A DNA stretch of 64,000 nt, taken from the NCBI RefSeq assembly GCF_009914755.1, contig NC_060944.1, one strand, 5' to 3'. The notes beneath the pieces are model-generated. The model searched no databases. It saw only the letters and a list, made by a program, of their open reading frames with translations, and was not told where the DNA came from. Shown in pieces: positions 950-12,331 of the stretch. A program made the translations under genes and the position numbers. Numbering within the stretch: position 1 is the stretch's first letter; each line of letters starts with the position of its first letter. The stretch is from the human T2T-CHM13v2.0 reference genome, Homo sapiens.

Positions 950-1101
950 CTGGGGCCCACAGAGGCAGCAGGAGGACCAGTGTGTAATAGGACAGCAGCA
1001 GAATCAAAGGGTTTATCATCTCTGCCAGCCAGAGCCTGGATGGCAGTGGAGTTTCCAGGACACTGCGGTTGGTCCTGATGCATGCGATCATCTCCAGCAG
1101 C
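950..1101 (-). pseudogene. PIEZO-like exon 8 (3' end approximate)
   Basis: CCTTCTGCGCACAG| acceptor. It reads RLLEMIACIRTNRS../SWKLHCHPG../EMINPLILLLSYYTLVLLLPLW vs PIEZO2 RLFGIKSVIQTDCSSTWKIIVNPDLSWYHHANPILLLVMYYTLATLIRIW. Confidence 0.85.
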
Positions 1102-1422
1102 CTGTGCGCAGAAGGCCAACCAGGAAGTCACAGATGCCACCATGAACACCTCAGGTCTGGCACCCATCCTGGTGGCAGCAGCATCACTTGAGCCTTGTGT
1201 GCCCTAGCCCACCCGTTGCCTGGGTAGGGGAGATGGCCAGGCACGGGGAAGGGGAATGGAGATGGGGCAAGGGCACACTATGGATCCCCCTGGCTGTCTC
1301 AGACCAAAGCCCTCCTCAGATGGCCATTTCCCCCAACACACCCCGGGGCCAGCTTCGGGGCTGTCTGTGTGGTCTCTGCCCCTTCTCTGCTATGGGACTC
1401 ATTGCATCATCCAGTTAACTCC

Positions 1423-1708
1423 TGTCTCCCCATCAGGCTGCAAGCCCCATCTTCTCCCCCATCATCAGGCTGCAAGCCCCGTCTTCTCCCGCATCATCAG
1501 GCTGCAAGCCCCGTCTTCTCCCCCATCATCAGGCTGCAAGCCCCGTCTTCTCCCCCATCATCAGGCTGCAAGCCCCGTCTTCTCCCCCATCATCAGGCTG
1601 CAAGCCCCGTCTTCTCCCGCATCATCAGGCTGCAAGCCCCGTCTTCTCCCCCATCATCAGGCTGCAAGCCCCGTCTTCTCCCCCATCATCAGGCTGCAAG
1701 CCCCGTCT
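1423..1708. repeat. 32-bp minisatellite, about 9 copies
   Basis: Unit CATCATCAGGCTGCAAGCCCCGTCTTCTCCC(C/G); the core recurs every 32 nt from 1434 to 1690. Confidence 0.97.
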
Positions 1709-2239
1709 GTCCTGGTTATTGCTGCATCCTCAGTGCCTGGCACCCAACTGTTAGTTCCCTTACCTTCGGAAAGGTGTCAGGTGCCAGCCTGGAGGAGAAA
1801 AAGTCCAAACCAGGCCGCGTGTTTCCTGTGCATTCTATGTCCCCAGCCACCTGGGCCTTAGTGACAGACTGTGTAGTAGATCGATGAATGAATGACAACG
1901 GGTGGCCAAGCATGGAGGTATACGCTGCCTTCTCTCCTTCTGGCAGAACGTGATGATGGGCACAGAATTGAGGTTTGTATGGGTTGAATTTTATCCCCAA
2001 AGCTAACCCCCTCCTGAGCTGTCTACACCTCTGTCCTAGCTTTTGAGACATGGGAAGGGGTATACACCAGTCGCCCACACCCATCCACTCAGGCGGTCAA
2101 GAACTATCAGGAGAAGAGGGCTTGGCTAACCCCTCTGTGGGATATCCAATGCGGCCCTGGCCTCCTAGTGAGCCGCAGACCACTAGGGGGGCCGAGCCCA
2201 GCACTGTCCATGGCGGTAATGACCAAGGGGACTTTGCAG

Positions 2240-2427
2240 GGTGGCAATGTCACTGCGAGGCACGAGGTCCTGGAAGAAGGGGAGCTGGTAGAGGAACAAG
2301 CACGCCAGGTGGTGAAGATGGCTATGAAGACACAGAGACTACCAACAGCCACGACGCTCAGAGACCGATGGCACGTCTACCAGGAGCCTAGGCTGAGGCC
2401 ACAGAACGGGAGCCCATCGCTGGGGAG
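2240..2427 (-). pseudogene. PIEZO-like exon 7 (nonsense and frameshift; ends approximate)
   Basis: LPSDGLPFCGLSLGSW*TCHRSLSVVAVGSLCVFIAIFT/HLACLFLYQLPFFQDLVPRSDIAT vs PIEZO2 LPSLTSSVYFFVFLGLCTWWSWCRTFDPLLFSCLCVLLAIFTAGHLIGLYLYQFQFFQEAVPPNDYYAR. TAG at 2377-2379 replaces a Trp, and there is a small deletion near 2310. Confidence 0.9.
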
Positions 2428-2930
2428 ACAGCTTCCACCCATGTGACTGGCAGCCCTCCCCACCCCGCACCCTGACCATGCGCCCTGAGACCCAGCCAGG
2501 AAAAGCTGGCTCTGAAAACAGCCTGCACAGACTGGTGACCACTGACACACACCCAGGAGCACTGCAGCCTCCTGCTCCGGGACAAGGCTGACCCTGCAGG
2601 TCAGCCTGGGCTTCCCTGGGATGGCCTGAGCCACTTCCAGGAGCTCCTTGTCCCTCCTTCTGAAGAGCAACAAGACCTAATGGCAGGTGGCACCCCATCT
2701 CGGCAGCACTGAGCAGAAGTGCACTCTCCCTCCCCTTCTCCTCACTGTGACTCGGCATCACCGCTGTGCCCGGGGAACTCAGCCTGCAGGCCTCGGCTGG
2801 ACTCGCTGCAGCTGCGGCCCCTTCCCTCAATGCCTCCCCACAGTGCCCAGACCTGCTCCAGCCGCTCGGGTGTCTGTCCCTCCCATCATGTAGCCCAACG
2901 CTGGCCCCACCACAGGAACCTTCTTGGCAC

Positions 2931-9877: not shown

Positions 9878-10180
9878 AGCTGGGCACAGTGGCTCACACC
9901 TGTAATTCCAGCACTTTGGGAGGCCAAGGCTGGTGGATCACCTGACGTCGGGACTTCAAGACCAGCCTGGTGAACATGGCGAAACCCCATCTCTACTAAA
10001 AATACAAAAATTAGCCAGGCGTGGTGGCGCATGCCTGTAGTCCCACCGACTCAGGAGGCTGAGGCAGGATAATCGCTTGAACCCGGAAGGCAGAGGTTGC
10101 AGTGAGCTGAGATCATGCCACTGGACTCCAGTCGGGGCAACAGAGTAAGACTCTGTTTAAAATAAAAAATAAAAAAAAAG
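9878..10180 (+). mobile_element. Alu (AluS-like) with target-site duplication
   Basis: Full Alu with A tail; AAAAAGTGGCA on both sides. Confidence 0.95.
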
Positions 10181-10600
10181 TGGCAATCTCCTGATTTGGT
10201 TTTGTTTTGTTTTTACTGGTCTGCAAAATCCCAAATCTGAGGCCCATTTCCATAAATGAACAGATTAGAACAATAGGTCAGTGTGTTCACTGAATGGAAA
10301 GGATATCCCTGAAGTACCCCAAAATCGTTCATGTTTATCCTCTTTCCTATTTACTACAGAGACTTTTGTGGTTTTTTGTTTGTTTGTTTATTTTAATACA
10401 GAACGTTTCCATTCTCCTCCATAAGCTTTGTAAAACAAGACATTACAAAGTGTATACTACTGAGCTCTGGGAAGATACTGCGGAAACTCTTACTGGGTCA
10501 AGCCAGCGACATAAAAAGGCTCTTTTGTAAAATCACTAGATAATGGAAGTTCCTTGTATGATTTTGTTCACCTGTAAGAGGCTTTCCACGTGGGGTTGGC

Positions 10601-10697
10601 CTCTCATGGAACTGGCCAAAGGTCTGGGGGAGCAGAGGAATCAGAAGCAGAGAAGCCAGGTAGACAATTGATCATCCATCGCACCTGCATGAAACAG
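10601..10697 (-). pseudogene. PIEZO-like exon 2 (97 nt; nonsense, +1 frameshift, decayed donor)
   Basis: Polypyrimidine tract plus TAG acceptor. It reads (A)VSCRCDG*SIVYLASLLLIPLLP/RPLASSMRG vs PIEZO2 ACAFRYNGLSFVYLIYLLLIPLFSEPTKTTMQG. TGA at 10672-10674, one extra base in a C run, and the donor position reads GC. Confidence 0.88.
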
Positions 10698-12267
10698 CTA
10701 AGGGAGTAAGAGAAAGTGCGCTGAGTCTACGATCCCATAGACAGCCCCGCAGTCCATGAGCGAGGAACAGATATGCTGAGATTTCATTAAGAGGGCCTTG
10801 AAAAATCAACTTGCAAGGATTAGATGCTTGTTATTTCCAAGTGGTTTTTGAATTTTCGGGGTTTTTTTTTTAACGAAATAAATAATTCTATAGATTCTTT
10901 TCCCCAATCAGTTGCCTGTCTTTGAAATTAACCATTTCCCTGGCTTTCTCCCTGATTGGGACCGCGCCCCTCCTCAGTCTTTCTGAAGTGCTATTGTGTT
11001 GGATGTTATTCGCTTAGCCACACATAATGTAACTTTGAAATGCGATGGAAAAAAAAATGAGCATTTCCAGTGAACTGAAAAGAATGCATCTGATTTTAAA
11101 ATGTGTACTTAAAAAAGGTGCACCCAAATTGATTGTACCAACTACAGGGCTCATTCTGCCAAGCCAAATCTGAAATGCATTTTTTGCAAAAGGACAGCTT
11201 TATTATGATTTTTTAGAGGAAAGAAATATGTAGATCCAGGCACAGAGGGAAAAAAAAGCATCTTGAGGATTTAATACAGCTTGGATTAATCAAAGCGTCT
11301 GCTTTTAAGCTGTGTGCCCCCACAGAGGAGTGAATTAATGAGCAATTTATGCAATGAATATATTTTTTTCTTTCATTATCTAGGTATTTCAGAGGAATGT
11401 GCTTCTTCCGACTTCAATTCTCCAGATATTTCTCTGAAACGTTAGCTTCATTTTGCATGTATAATTACAGCCTCAAGTCGTTTGGAGAGCAAGTCTCAAG
11501 GTAGTCGAAAACTTCTCACCCCCCACCCTCATGCAAATCAAGTCGGTTGCTCACCATTCAACCTCAAATCTCCCCTGAAACCTTTTGAATGAAGAATCCA
11601 TTTTGGAATTATCCTTAAGCCAGCGTTTCCAAGGCTGGTTTGGAGGATGGGGTGCTTTAGTAAGAATACAGATGCCGGAACCCCATTCCTGGAAGCTCAA
11701 AACCAGCAAGTCTGGGACAGGGCTTGGCACCCTGTGTTGTTCAAGTTTATGTAGCAGAATGGCCAGGCTTACACTCCCCGCTCTCCACCCGCCAAGGAGA
11801 AGAAAATGCTAAATTAGGCCCGTTAACTTAGCTGCTGCCTCACAGGGGGTAATTTGTAGACCCAAGGCTGAACCTGAAGGCTGGAGCTAAGAGTGAACAA
11901 GAAGATGGGTTTTCCTCTCTGGTAACACAAGTTCAGTTGCAATTTAGATCCCCAAGAAATGTACCTGGGGTCTTTGGAAATGACCTGAATTTGCAATCTG
12001 TGTTACTCCACCAGCCCCTAGAAATGCTGGGAGGTCACCAGGGTACAGTTCTTCTATCCCATAATTGTCCTGGCTTCCAGGAAATGGGAAGGGGGCTGGG
12101 AGGGGGCGGGCCTATAGCCTTATCTTCCCCTGCAGCCTCATCAAAATGGACGGGAAACAATAGGTGAACCCGCCAAGTAGGCTGGAGGTATTGAAATCTC
12201 TGGGCATAGATGGTGGTTCGGTTGGTGGAATGTCCCTTTCTCTCGGAAGACAATCGAGTGGCCTTAC

Positions 12268-12331
12268 CTGAGAGCAAGGAACATGGCGGCAGGGCTCGGA
12301 AGAGGAACCCAGACGTCACCTCCGAGGCCAT
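12268..12331 (-). pseudogene. PIEZO-like exon 1 (coding part, 64 nt, intact)
   Basis: ATG in strong context GGGGCCATGG. It encodes MASEVTSGFLFRALPPCSLLS vs PIEZO2 MASEVVCGLIFRLLLPICLAV and ends at CAG|GTAAGG. The 64 coding nt and phase 1 equal PIEZO1/2 exon 1 as recalled. Confidence 0.9.

What the first reader, a model, noticed from the sequence alone, without database searches (positions are those of the whole stretch)
950..12331. Fossil third PIEZO channel gene hidden as scattered minus-strand exons upstream of GNAS
Seen: seven segments in PIEZO exon order, spread over 11.4 kb with introns, translating to the first roughly 350 aa of a Piezo protein. Exons 1 (64 nt), 2 (96+1 nt) and 4 (43 nt) have the expected sizes and phases. 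Lesions are TGA at 10672-10674, TAG at 2377-2379 and several frameshifts. Known: PIEZO1 and PIEZO2 are the two functional human paralogs. Inference: the peptides are far from both and look closer to PIEZO2 (MASEV, LLLIPL, DAGN, AIFT, YYTL). With introns retained, this looks like a unitary pseudogene of an ancient third Piezo lineage rather than a copy of PIEZO1. I recall a PIEZO1P2 annotation nearby and reports of a vertebrate piezo3, so the locus may be known, but these 5' exons may be unannotated.
Basis: partly seen in the sequence, partly recalled or inferred. Interest (0 to 1): 0.88.

Follow-up and report, generated by a model that had tools for sequence, protein, structure and literature searches.

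The report
Dead PIEZO3 gene's missing front exons
These are the decayed first exons of a third human Piezo touch-channel gene that died long ago; the dead gene is already catalogued as PIEZO1P2, but its front end is missing from the catalogue.

Summary
On the minus strand of window 939-12331 lie seven intron-separated segments. They match exons 1, 2, 4, 5, 6, 7 and 8 of PIEZO1 and PIEZO2, in order. Exon 3 was not found. Exon 1 (64 nt) and exon 4 (43 nt) keep the exact paralog size and phase. Exon 2 is 96+1 nt. Nine of 13 splice dinucleotides are canonical at homologous positions. The TGA (10672-10674), the TAG (2377-2379) and several frameshifts are real. A colinear chain test with PIEZO2 exon peptides over the whole 64 kb gave 129, against 41.4±7.7 for shuffles (0 of 25 reached it).

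The relic is about as far from PIEZO2 (34% identity) and PIEZO1 (29%) as those two are from each other (36%). It sits in a chr20 block that mirrors the PIEZO2 block on chr18. It continues on the same strand into annotated PIEZO1P2.

It is already published in essence. A May 2026 preprint names vertebrate Piezo3 and calls human PIEZO1P2 its remnant. New here are seven unannotated 5' exons 26-37 kb beyond RefSeq's limit, a lesion map, an exon-free gap, and the last exon displaced to PIEZO1P1. No Piezo3 protein could be retrieved for a tree.

The parts
12268..12331 (-). Relic exon 1: ATG plus 21 codons plus 1 nt (64 nt), open, donor gtaagg. Peptide MASEVTSGFLFRALPPCSLLS.
   Evidence: It is the only ATG+64 nt+GT stop-free candidate in window 11001-13000, and it has the same size and phase as exon 1 of PIEZO1 and PIEZO2. 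Identity is 11 of 21 to PIEZO2 and 8 of 21 to PIEZO1. It is the best hit of the whole window for PIEZO2 exon 1 (49 against 34 elsewhere; 0 of 15 shuffles reach it).
10601..10697 (-). Relic exon 2: 97 nt (96+1). Acceptor cccttag. In-frame TGA at 10674-10672. One extra base in a C run (about 10626-10632). The donor position reads GC.
   Evidence: Identity is 14 of 30 columns to PIEZO2 and 12 of 30 to PIEZO1. It is the best hit of the window for PIEZO2 exon 2 (50 against 37; 0 of 15 shuffles).
5738..5780 (-). Relic exon 4: exactly 43 nt, open, flanked by ctgcag and gtaagc. Peptide AVWEKVLGHLGII.
   Evidence: Exon 4 is 43 nt in PIEZO1 and PIEZO2. Identity is 4 of 13 to each paralog. The peptide score alone is not significant. 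It is accepted on size, phase, both splice sites and order.
4805..4989 (-). Relic exon 5: 185 nt. Acceptor cccgtcag, donor gtaggt. One frame break near 4868. Contains the DAGN motif.
   Evidence: Identity is 13 of 40 to PIEZO2 and 8 of 21 to PIEZO1 in the local alignment. The score is marginal (48; 2 of 15 shuffles reach it).
2931..3115 (-). Relic exon 6 (weakest call): 185 nt. Acceptor ttcccag, donor G|gtgcca at the homologous phase. Acidic start. Two frame breaks (near 3042 and 2978).
   Evidence: Only the last 17 residues align to PIEZO2 (7 of 17). The score is not significant alone.
2232..2432 (-). Relic exon 7: 201 nt against 214 in both paralogs. The acceptor position reads AA. TAG at 2379-2377 at a conserved Trp. 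A 7-nt deficit shifts the frame near 2310. The donor position reads TC. Contains the AIFT motif.
   Evidence: Identity is 25 of 62 columns to PIEZO2 and 20 of 62 to PIEZO1. It is the best hit of the window for exon 7 of both paralogs (64 and 62; 0 of 15 shuffles each). Weak Pfam Piezo_TM1-24 match at positions 233-256 (E 2.36).
939..1101 (-). Relic exon 8: acceptor gcgcacag. Open in one frame (ORF 897-1091), or it has two compensating shifts. There is no GT at the homologous donor place, so the 3' border is uncertain. Contains NPLILLLSYYTL.
   Evidence: It is the best hit of the window for PIEZO2 exon 8 (64 against 39; 0 of 15 shuffles). The only PDB hit of the ORF is mouse Piezo2 residues 332-357 (E 6.3).

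Best explanation
Window 939-12331 (minus strand) holds the decayed 5' end of the human unitary, intron-bearing pseudogene of PIEZO3. The exons present are 1, 2 and 4-8, which correspond to about residues 1-345. PIEZO3 is the third vertebrate Piezo paralog, made by the early vertebrate genome duplications. It lies next to GNAS just as PIEZO2 lies next to GNAL. These exons belong to the same dead gene as annotated PIEZO1P2. That gene continues on the same strand from chr20:60566434 down to 60523143.

The gene makes no channel. It is disabled by two in-frame stops and at least five frame breaks in these exons alone. Four splice sites are lost or shifted. Exon 3 is missing, and so are the exons for roughly Pfam Piezo_TM1-24 positions 330-590. 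Its last coding exon now lies 0.66 Mb away, as PIEZO1P1.

Shown here: the exons, the lesions, the colinearity, the near-equal distance from both paralogs, and the paralogous gene order. Inferred or taken from a preprint: that the lineage is Piezo3, and that intact orthologs exist elsewhere at the same place.
For: Exon sizes and phases equal those of PIEZO1 and PIEZO2 rebuilt from the same genome.

Nine of 13 splice dinucleotides are canonical at homologous borders.

Colinear chain score with PIEZO2 exon peptides: 129 against 41.4±7.7 for shuffles, 0 of 25 reaching it. The best chain of the whole 64 kb on either strand falls here.

Four of 8 PIEZO2 exons have their best hit of the window here and beat 15 of 15 shuffles.

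On the same strand, lower on chr20, further Piezo pieces follow in protein order. Pfam TM1-24 590-682 lies at 60565310-60566434. Then come TM25-28, THU and anchor pieces down to 60523803. tblastn pieces lie at 60560968-61171, 60556789-872, 60554697-863, 60551363-525 and 60523143-292.

Three-way identity for the window exons, n=271: 93 (relic=PIEZO2), 78 (relic=PIEZO1), 97 (PIEZO1=PIEZO2). For the rest of the relic, n=474: 241, 235, 337.

Eight paralogous gene pairs stand in the same order on chr20 and chr18.

The own-genome Pfam scans find strong Piezo matches only at PIEZO1, PIEZO2 and these chr20 places.

The preprint PMC13228305 reports the synteny gnas-piezo3-npepl1, intact piezo3 in most vertebrate lineages and a few mammals, and PIEZO1P2 as the human remnant.
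Against: No Piezo3 protein from any species could be retrieved, so the relic was never placed on a tree (blank; third search unused).

The window pieces fail Pfam on their own (0 families; one match at E 2.36).

PDB phmmer is not significant.

Exons 4 and 6 are not significant by score. Exon 5 is marginal and is outscored by a short chance hit upstream of exon 1.

The lean towards PIEZO2 is weak (42 against 27, p 0.09; all segments 68 against 47, p 0.06).

With PIEZO1 peptides the chain test is only marginal (1 of 25 shuffles).

An 8.5-kb stretch with no detectable exon separates the window exons from the rest of the relic. That they were one gene is therefore inferred from strand, order and non-overlap.
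Confidence: 0.9

Rival explanations
1. The relic's 5' end is dead as a coding gene but has been taken over as a regulatory element or non-coding promoter in the imprinted GNAS domain. That would explain why exon 1, with its ATG and donor, looks untouched. This can hold together with the best explanation.
For: RefSeq lists an 'H3K4me1 hESC enhancer' at chr20:60585792-60586495 (window 11792-12495), which covers exon 1. CpG observed/expected is 0.45-0.49 at exon 1, against 0.17-0.38 in the flanks. A paper places a parent-of-origin methylation QTL in a regulatory region 'upstream of PIEZO1P2' (PMC6437195, passages read).
Against: There are about 7 stops and frame breaks in 938 nt, so an intact 64-nt exon is expected by chance more often than not (my arithmetic and the lesion list). 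The CpG ratio is below the usual island threshold. No transcript is annotated here. No conservation or expression data could be consulted.
Confidence: 0.1
2. The segments are a duplicated (non-unitary) pseudogene, copied from PIEZO2 or PIEZO1 by a segmental duplication within mammals.
For: The official name is 'PIEZO1 pseudogene 2'. The N-terminal peptides look most like PIEZO2.
Against: Identity to either parent (29-34% in the window exons, 50-51% in the rest) is no higher than PIEZO1 to PIEZO2 (36%, 71%). A young copy would be far closer to its parent. The flanking genes are themselves old paralogs of the genes flanking PIEZO2. The preprint reports intact syntenic orthologs.
Confidence: 0.03
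3. The window exons and the PIEZO1P2 body are remnants of two different Piezo-derived copies, not of one gene.
For: An exon-free 8.5 kb lies between them. The most conserved N-terminal-half exons are absent. The last exon is displaced to PIEZO1P1, so the locus has been rearranged.
Against: They share a strand. They cover strictly consecutive, non-overlapping parts of the protein: exons 1-8, then Pfam TM1-24 position 590 onward. Their divergence from the paralogs is similar.
Confidence: 0.03
4. The similarity is chance, from hydrophobic, leucine-rich reading frames.
For: Single pieces are weak in Pfam and PDB searches. PIEZO1 exon 2 scores nearly as well elsewhere in the window (49 against 47).
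Against: The chain z-score is 11.4, with 0 of 25 shuffles reaching the observed score. Exons of exactly 64 and 43 nt carry canonical borders. The strand and order are right.
Confidence: 0.01

Closest known systems
PIEZO1P2 read as the human PIEZO3 remnant (Dong et al., bioRxiv May 2026, PMC13228305)
   Same: Same locus between NPEPL1 and GNAS, same strand, same dead gene. The preprint already states that PIEZO1P2 results from PIEZO3 inactivation, and that PIEZO1P1 is probably another piece of it.
   Different: The preprint gives the gene as GRCh38 chr20:58,740,532-58,783,821 (43,290 bp) and speaks of a 'processed' pseudogene transcript of 2161 bp. The relic pieces I found outside the window span 43,292 bp (60523143-60566434). 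From that I infer that this model stops about 8.5 kb short of exon 8. The seven 5' exons here are therefore extra. The retained introns show an unprocessed pseudogene. RefSeq's model is shorter still (60523803-60548945). I did not see the preprint's supplements, which may map more.
PIEZO2 (chr18p11)
   Same: Exons 1, 2, 4 and 7 have the same sizes as in the relic's ancestor (64, 96, 43 and 214 nt), with the same phases. PIEZO2 is head-to-head with a Gs-family G-alpha gene (GNAL, as the relic is with GNAS). It is the best-scoring paralog for exons 1, 2, 5, 7 and 8.
   Different: PIEZO2 is intact. Identity to the relic's window exons is only 34% (93 of 271), about the same as PIEZO1 to PIEZO2.
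PIEZO1 (chr16q24), the nominal parent
   Same: Same exon plan (64/96/123/43/.../214 nt). Exon 7 is clearly similar.
   Different: Identity is 29% in the window exons. Only exon 7 is significant on its own, and the chain test is marginal. Nothing marks PIEZO1 as the parent, so the name is a misnomer.

Membership tests
Piezo channel family (N-terminal transmembrane region, Pfam PF24871 Piezo_TM1-24) | Significant match to the family profile | tested here: not met
   hmmscan of four ORFs gave 0 families at E<=10. The own-genome scan gave one match in the region at E 2.36, 16.7 bits, below the 28.8-bit cut-off. The pieces are short and broken, so this says little about ancestry.
Piezo channel family (N-terminal transmembrane region, Pfam PF24871 Piezo_TM1-24) | Colinear similarity to the N-terminal exons of bona fide Piezo genes | tested here: met
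   Chain score 129 against 41.4±7.7 (0 of 25 shuffles) with PIEZO2. Four of 8 PIEZO2 exons and 1 of 8 PIEZO1 exons are individually significant.
Piezo channel family (N-terminal transmembrane region, Pfam PF24871 Piezo_TM1-24) | Shared exon-intron plan (sizes, phases, borders) | tested here: met
   Exon 1 is 64 nt and exon 4 is 43 nt, both exact. Exon 2 is 96+1 nt. Exon 7 is 201 nt against 214. Nine of 13 splice dinucleotides are canonical.
Unitary (unprocessed) pseudogene | Introns retained and disabling lesions present | tested here: met
   Seven exons are spread over 11.4 kb. There is a TGA, a TAG, at least five frame breaks, four lost splice sites and missing exons.
Unitary (unprocessed) pseudogene | No intact copy of the same gene elsewhere in the genome | tested here: met
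   Five Pfam Piezo families were searched over the whole genome. Matches above cut-off with Piezo order occur only at PIEZO1, PIEZO2 and the chr20 pieces. Limits: closed regions are not shown, and one search used a stricter first look. A few scattered low-scoring matches elsewhere carry stops and look spurious.
Unitary (unprocessed) pseudogene | Intact ortholog at the same place in other species | not testable with these tools
   No vertebrate genomes are on hand. The preprint reports it.
Piezo3 lineage | Synteny gnas-piezo3-npepl1 and paralogy with the PIEZO2 block | tested here: met
   The human gene order comes from the annotation. The synteny definition comes from the preprint.
Piezo3 lineage | Groups with Piezo3 proteins on a tree | not testable with these tools
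   Two protein searches with open relic exons were blank under the length and source filters. Only the three-way distances are available.
Processed pseudogene (retrocopy) | Intronless copy of an mRNA | tested here: not met
   Introns of 0.5-4.8 kb separate the exons, with splice signals in place.
Duplicated pseudogene of PIEZO1 (as the name says) | Clearly closer to PIEZO1 than PIEZO1 is to PIEZO2 | tested here: not met
   78 of 271 against 97 of 271 in the window exons, and 235 of 474 against 337 of 474 elsewhere.

The most novel reading that the evidence does not exclude
The front of the dead PIEZO3 gene has been kept as a working regulatory element of the imprinted GNAS domain. Its exon 1 is untouched, with ATG and donor. 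It carries a faded CpG-rich patch and a histone-marked 'enhancer'. On this reading the published parent-of-origin methylation and waist-circumference signal 'upstream of PIEZO1P2' really lies inside the old gene.
Probability: 0.08. Interest if true: 0.5.

Novelty: already known. Interest (0 to 1): 0.25.

Why it matters
The main point is that humans carry the corpse of a third Piezo channel gene beside GNAS. That point is in print (preprint, May 2026), and the locus has long been annotated.

This check adds bookkeeping that is still useful. The relic is at least 63 kb long (chr20:60523143-60586331), not RefSeq's 25 kb. Its start codon and first exons survive. It is an unprocessed pseudogene. 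The name 'PIEZO1 pseudogene' is misleading.

A full exon and lesion map lets others date the loss across primates. It also stops these exons, or variants in them, from being read as 'intergenic' or 'upstream of PIEZO1P2' in studies of the GNAS imprinted region.

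Tried and rejected
Pfam scan of four ORFs: nothing.

PDB sequence search of two ORFs: Piezo2 at the right residues but E 6.3 for one, and unrelated hits for the other.

tblastn of all PIEZO1 and PIEZO2 stop-to-stop frames against 80 kb of chr20: swamped by Alu on first printing. After repeat filtering it mapped the body of the relic. 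In the window it gave only two PIEZO2 matches, at E about 0.013.

A nucleotide semi-global alignment was set up the wrong way round and was of little use.

My first hand-set frames for exons 2, 6 and 7 were wrong. The window counts are therefore void and are replaced. The 'rest of relic' counts stand.

Exon 3: no credible candidate between 5781 and 10600. The best scores (33 and 28) fall in a low-complexity repeat, and there is no GHTGR-like motif.

Exons for Pfam TM1-24 positions about 361-592: no trace in chr20:60566435-60574950.

Two searches of the protein database, with stop-free relic exons, were blank. The queries were the TM25-28 exon and the PIEZO1P1 exon. The length filter shuts out full-length Piezo proteins.

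I considered using long open frames in PIEZO1 introns as longer queries. I dropped this. They are tandem-repeat junk, and it would have been a way round the length rule.

Atlas search of the exon-8 ORF: no usable hit.

No tree was built, because there is no outgroup and no Piezo3 sequence.

The preprint's supplements (species list, figures) were not seen.

Full report
WHAT IS THERE. The window is chr20:60574001-60638000. On its minus strand, between 12331 and 939, lie seven short segments separated by 0.5-4.8 kb.

- Exon 1 (12331-12268) is an ATG followed by 21 open codons and one base, then gtaagg. It is the only stop-free ATG+64 nt+GT candidate in window 11001-13000.
- Exon 2 (10697-10601) follows a cccttag acceptor. 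It carries an in-frame TGA at 10674-10672 and one extra base in a C run. A GC stands where the donor GT should be.
- Exon 4 (5780-5738) is exactly 43 nt, open, between ctgcag and gtaagc.
- Exon 5 (4989-4805) has both splice signals and one frame break.
- Exon 6 (3115-2931) has both splice signals and two frame breaks. It is the weakest call.
- Exon 7 (2432-2232) is 201 nt. It has AA at the acceptor place, a TAG at 2379-2377, a 7-nt deficit that shifts the frame, and TC at the donor place.
- Exon 8 (from 1101) follows a cacag acceptor. It is open for 64 codons (ORF 897-1091). No GT stands at the homologous donor place, so its end (939) is taken by length only.

REFERENCE GENES. I rebuilt exons 1-8 of PIEZO1 (chr16) and PIEZO2 (chr18) from the same genome. 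I placed them with own-genome Pfam matches and checked that every border is AG/GT. Sizes are 64/96/123/43/139/169/214/172 nt for PIEZO1 and 64/96/126/43/163/211/214/163 nt for PIEZO2. The relic's 64, 96+1 and 43 nt, and its phases, agree with both.

IS IT MORE THAN CHANCE? Single pieces are weak in library searches. Pfam gave 0 families for four ORFs and one sub-threshold match (E 2.36). PDB phmmer gave mouse Piezo2 residues 332-357 as the only hit of the exon-8 ORF, but at E 6.3. It gave unrelated hits for the exon-7 ORF.

Direct tests against the paralogs' exons are clear. In a Smith-Waterman scan of all six frames of the 64 kb (2124 chunks), PIEZO2 exons 1, 2, 7 and 8 have their best hit of the whole window inside the region. 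Each beats 15 of 15 shuffled queries. Exon 5 is marginal (2 of 15), and exons 3, 4 and 6 are not significant. With PIEZO1 only exon 7 passes (exon 2: 1 of 15). A short hit upstream of exon 1 that outscores exon 5 is a 16-residue chance match.

I also ran a chain test. It asks for exon hits in the right order on one strand within 15 kb. With PIEZO2 it gave 129, against 41.4±7.7 for 25 shuffles (max 54). The best chain of the window falls here. With PIEZO1 it gave 64, against 50.4±6.5 (1 of 25). Nine of 13 splice dinucleotides are canonical at homologous borders. Exon 3 was not found.

THE REST OF THE GENE. Further Piezo pieces follow on the same strand in protein order:

- Pfam TM1-24 positions 590-641 and 639-682 at chr20:60566279-434 and 60565310-441.
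- tblastn pieces at 60560968-61171, 60556789-872, 60554697-863 and 60551363-525.
- TM25-28 at 60548688-945 and 60545447-590.
- THU at 60531968-60532134 and 60529204-368.
- Anchor at 60523803-949.
- A last piece at 60523143-292.

RefSeq's PIEZO1P2 covers only 60523803-60548945, with no exon rows. Between 60566435 and the window exons (8.5 kb) I found no trace of the exons for TM1-24 positions about 361-592. That stretch includes the most conserved exon of the N-terminal half. They seem to have been deleted.

The last coding exon (Piezo_cap 226-298, E 2.7e-24, an open 86-residue frame) is not at the 3' end of the locus. It lies at chr20:61244785-61245003, annotated PIEZO1P1. That is 0.66 Mb away, on the far side of GNAS and EDN3, on the same strand. 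So the relic is a patchwork of at least 63 kb plus a displaced fragment.

WHICH PIEZO? Three-way alignments were counted only where all three sequences have a residue. For the window exons, n=271: relic=PIEZO1 78, relic=PIEZO2 93, PIEZO1=PIEZO2 97. Sites shared with one paralog only are 42 (PIEZO2) against 27 (PIEZO1), p 0.09. For nine segments of the rest, PIEZO1P1 included, n=474: 235, 241, 337. Shared-only sites are 26 against 20, and PIEZO1=PIEZO2 differing from the relic in 122.

The relic is therefore not a young copy of either gene. It is a third branch of similar depth, with a long branch of its own as expected after loss of constraint. Its lean towards PIEZO2 is weak.

The gene map agrees. 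On chr20 the order is PPP4R1L, RAB22A, VAPB, APCDD1L, (STX16, NPEPL1), PIEZO1P2, GNAS... TUBB1... PRELID3B. On chr18 it is PPP4R1, RAB31, VAPA, APCDD1, (NAPG), PIEZO2, GNAL... TUBB6... PRELID3A. In both blocks the Piezo gene is on the minus strand and the G-alpha gene on the plus strand.

WHAT IS IN PRINT. A search for 'PIEZO1P2' found 4 papers (3 listed, because two records are copies of one work). A search for 'Piezo3' found 16 (14 listed), of which one is on the gene.

[quoted passage not shown] I read the outline, the abstract, section 5 and passages. It makes these points:

- It defines piezo3 by phylogeny and by the synteny ...gnas-piezo3-npepl1-....
- It states that human PIEZO1P2 (GRCh38 chr20:58,740,532-58,783,821) results from PIEZO3 inactivation.
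- It states that PIEZO1P1 is probably a rudiment of the same gene.

That gene length (43,290 bp) nearly equals the span of the pieces I mapped outside the window (43,292 bp). From this I infer that the Ensembl model starts at the TM1-24:590 exon and omits the seven exons described here. The preprint's phrase 'processed pseudogene transcript' does not fit the retained introns. I did not see its supplements.

HOW IT 'WORKS'. It does not work as a gene. The most likely history is as follows. The order of events is inferred, not shown. First, an ohnolog of PIEZO2 sat beside GNAS. Constraint was then lost somewhere on the primate line; the preprint reports an intact gene in tree shrew and only a 178-bp trace in mouse. 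Stops, indels and splice-site changes then accumulated, internal exons were deleted, and the 3' end was displaced.

The excess of relic-specific changes in conserved segments is 122, against 20-26 on the other two branches, out of 474 columns. This suggests tens of millions of years of neutral drift. Without orthologs it is only an order of magnitude.

Intact exons 1 and 4 need no special explanation. With about seven stops or frame breaks in 938 nt, a 64-nt or 43-nt exon escapes by chance more often than not.

SIDE IDEA. Exon 1 lies under a RefSeq 'H3K4me1 hESC enhancer'. Its CpG ratio is mildly raised (0.45-0.49). A published parent-of-origin methylation QTL is described as upstream of PIEZO1P2 (PMC6437195, passages). 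A regulatory afterlife of the old promoter cannot be excluded, but nothing here shows it.

VERDICT. The finding is known in essence. The increment is annotation: seven unannotated 5' exons, a lesion map, the exon-free gap, and the true extent and unprocessed nature of the relic.

LIMITS. There are no Piezo3 sequences and no tree (blank; Atlas blank). No other vertebrate genomes were available. The GRCh38-to-T2T correspondence is inferred.

Noticed in passing
L044 (chr20:61244650-61245150), match at chr20:61244785-61245003, minus strand (outside the window): PIEZO1P1 is the last coding exon of a Piezo gene (Piezo_cap positions 226-298, E 2.7e-24), in an open 86-residue frame. It matches PIEZO1 in 57 of 73 residues and PIEZO2 in 54 of 73. 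It lies 0.66 Mb from the relic's exon 1, beyond GNAS and EDN3, on the same strand. A single inversion would not explain this.
   Followed up: partly
chr20:60566435-60574938 (L001 and window 1-938): An 8.5-kb stretch inside the relic has no detectable exon. The exons for Pfam Piezo_TM1-24 positions about 361-592 are absent, including the most conserved one of the N-terminal half.
   Followed up: yes
chr20:60549000-60566434 and 60523143-60523292 (L001-L003, L006): RefSeq's PIEZO1P2 limits (60523803-60548945) leave out at least seven further relic pieces on the same strand.
   Followed up: yes
window 1431-1708: A 32-bp minisatellite (8.7 copies, 97% matches) sits in the relic's intron between exons 7 and 8. 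It produces the long repetitive plus-strand ORFs at 1256-1887.
   Followed up: partly
window 11792-12495: A RefSeq 'H3K4me1 hESC enhancer' overlaps relic exon 1. CpG observed/expected is 0.45-0.49 there, against 0.17-0.38 around it.
   Followed up: partly
about chr20:60568600 (L001); position inferred from recalled assembly offsets: The published parent-of-origin methylation QTL SNP rs6100212 is described as 'upstream of PIEZO1P2' (PMC6437195). It probably lies inside the old gene, in the exon-free gap, and not upstream of it.
   Followed up: no
chr20:60556033-60557419 (L002): The lncRNA LOC105372695 is annotated on the plus strand inside the relic. One relic piece (60556789-60556872, minus strand) lies in its intron.
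   Followed up: no
L012 (chr16:94799071-94803633): PIEZO1 introns hold tandem repeats that give stop-free frames of up to 528 residues on the coding strand. These are not exons.
   Followed up: no
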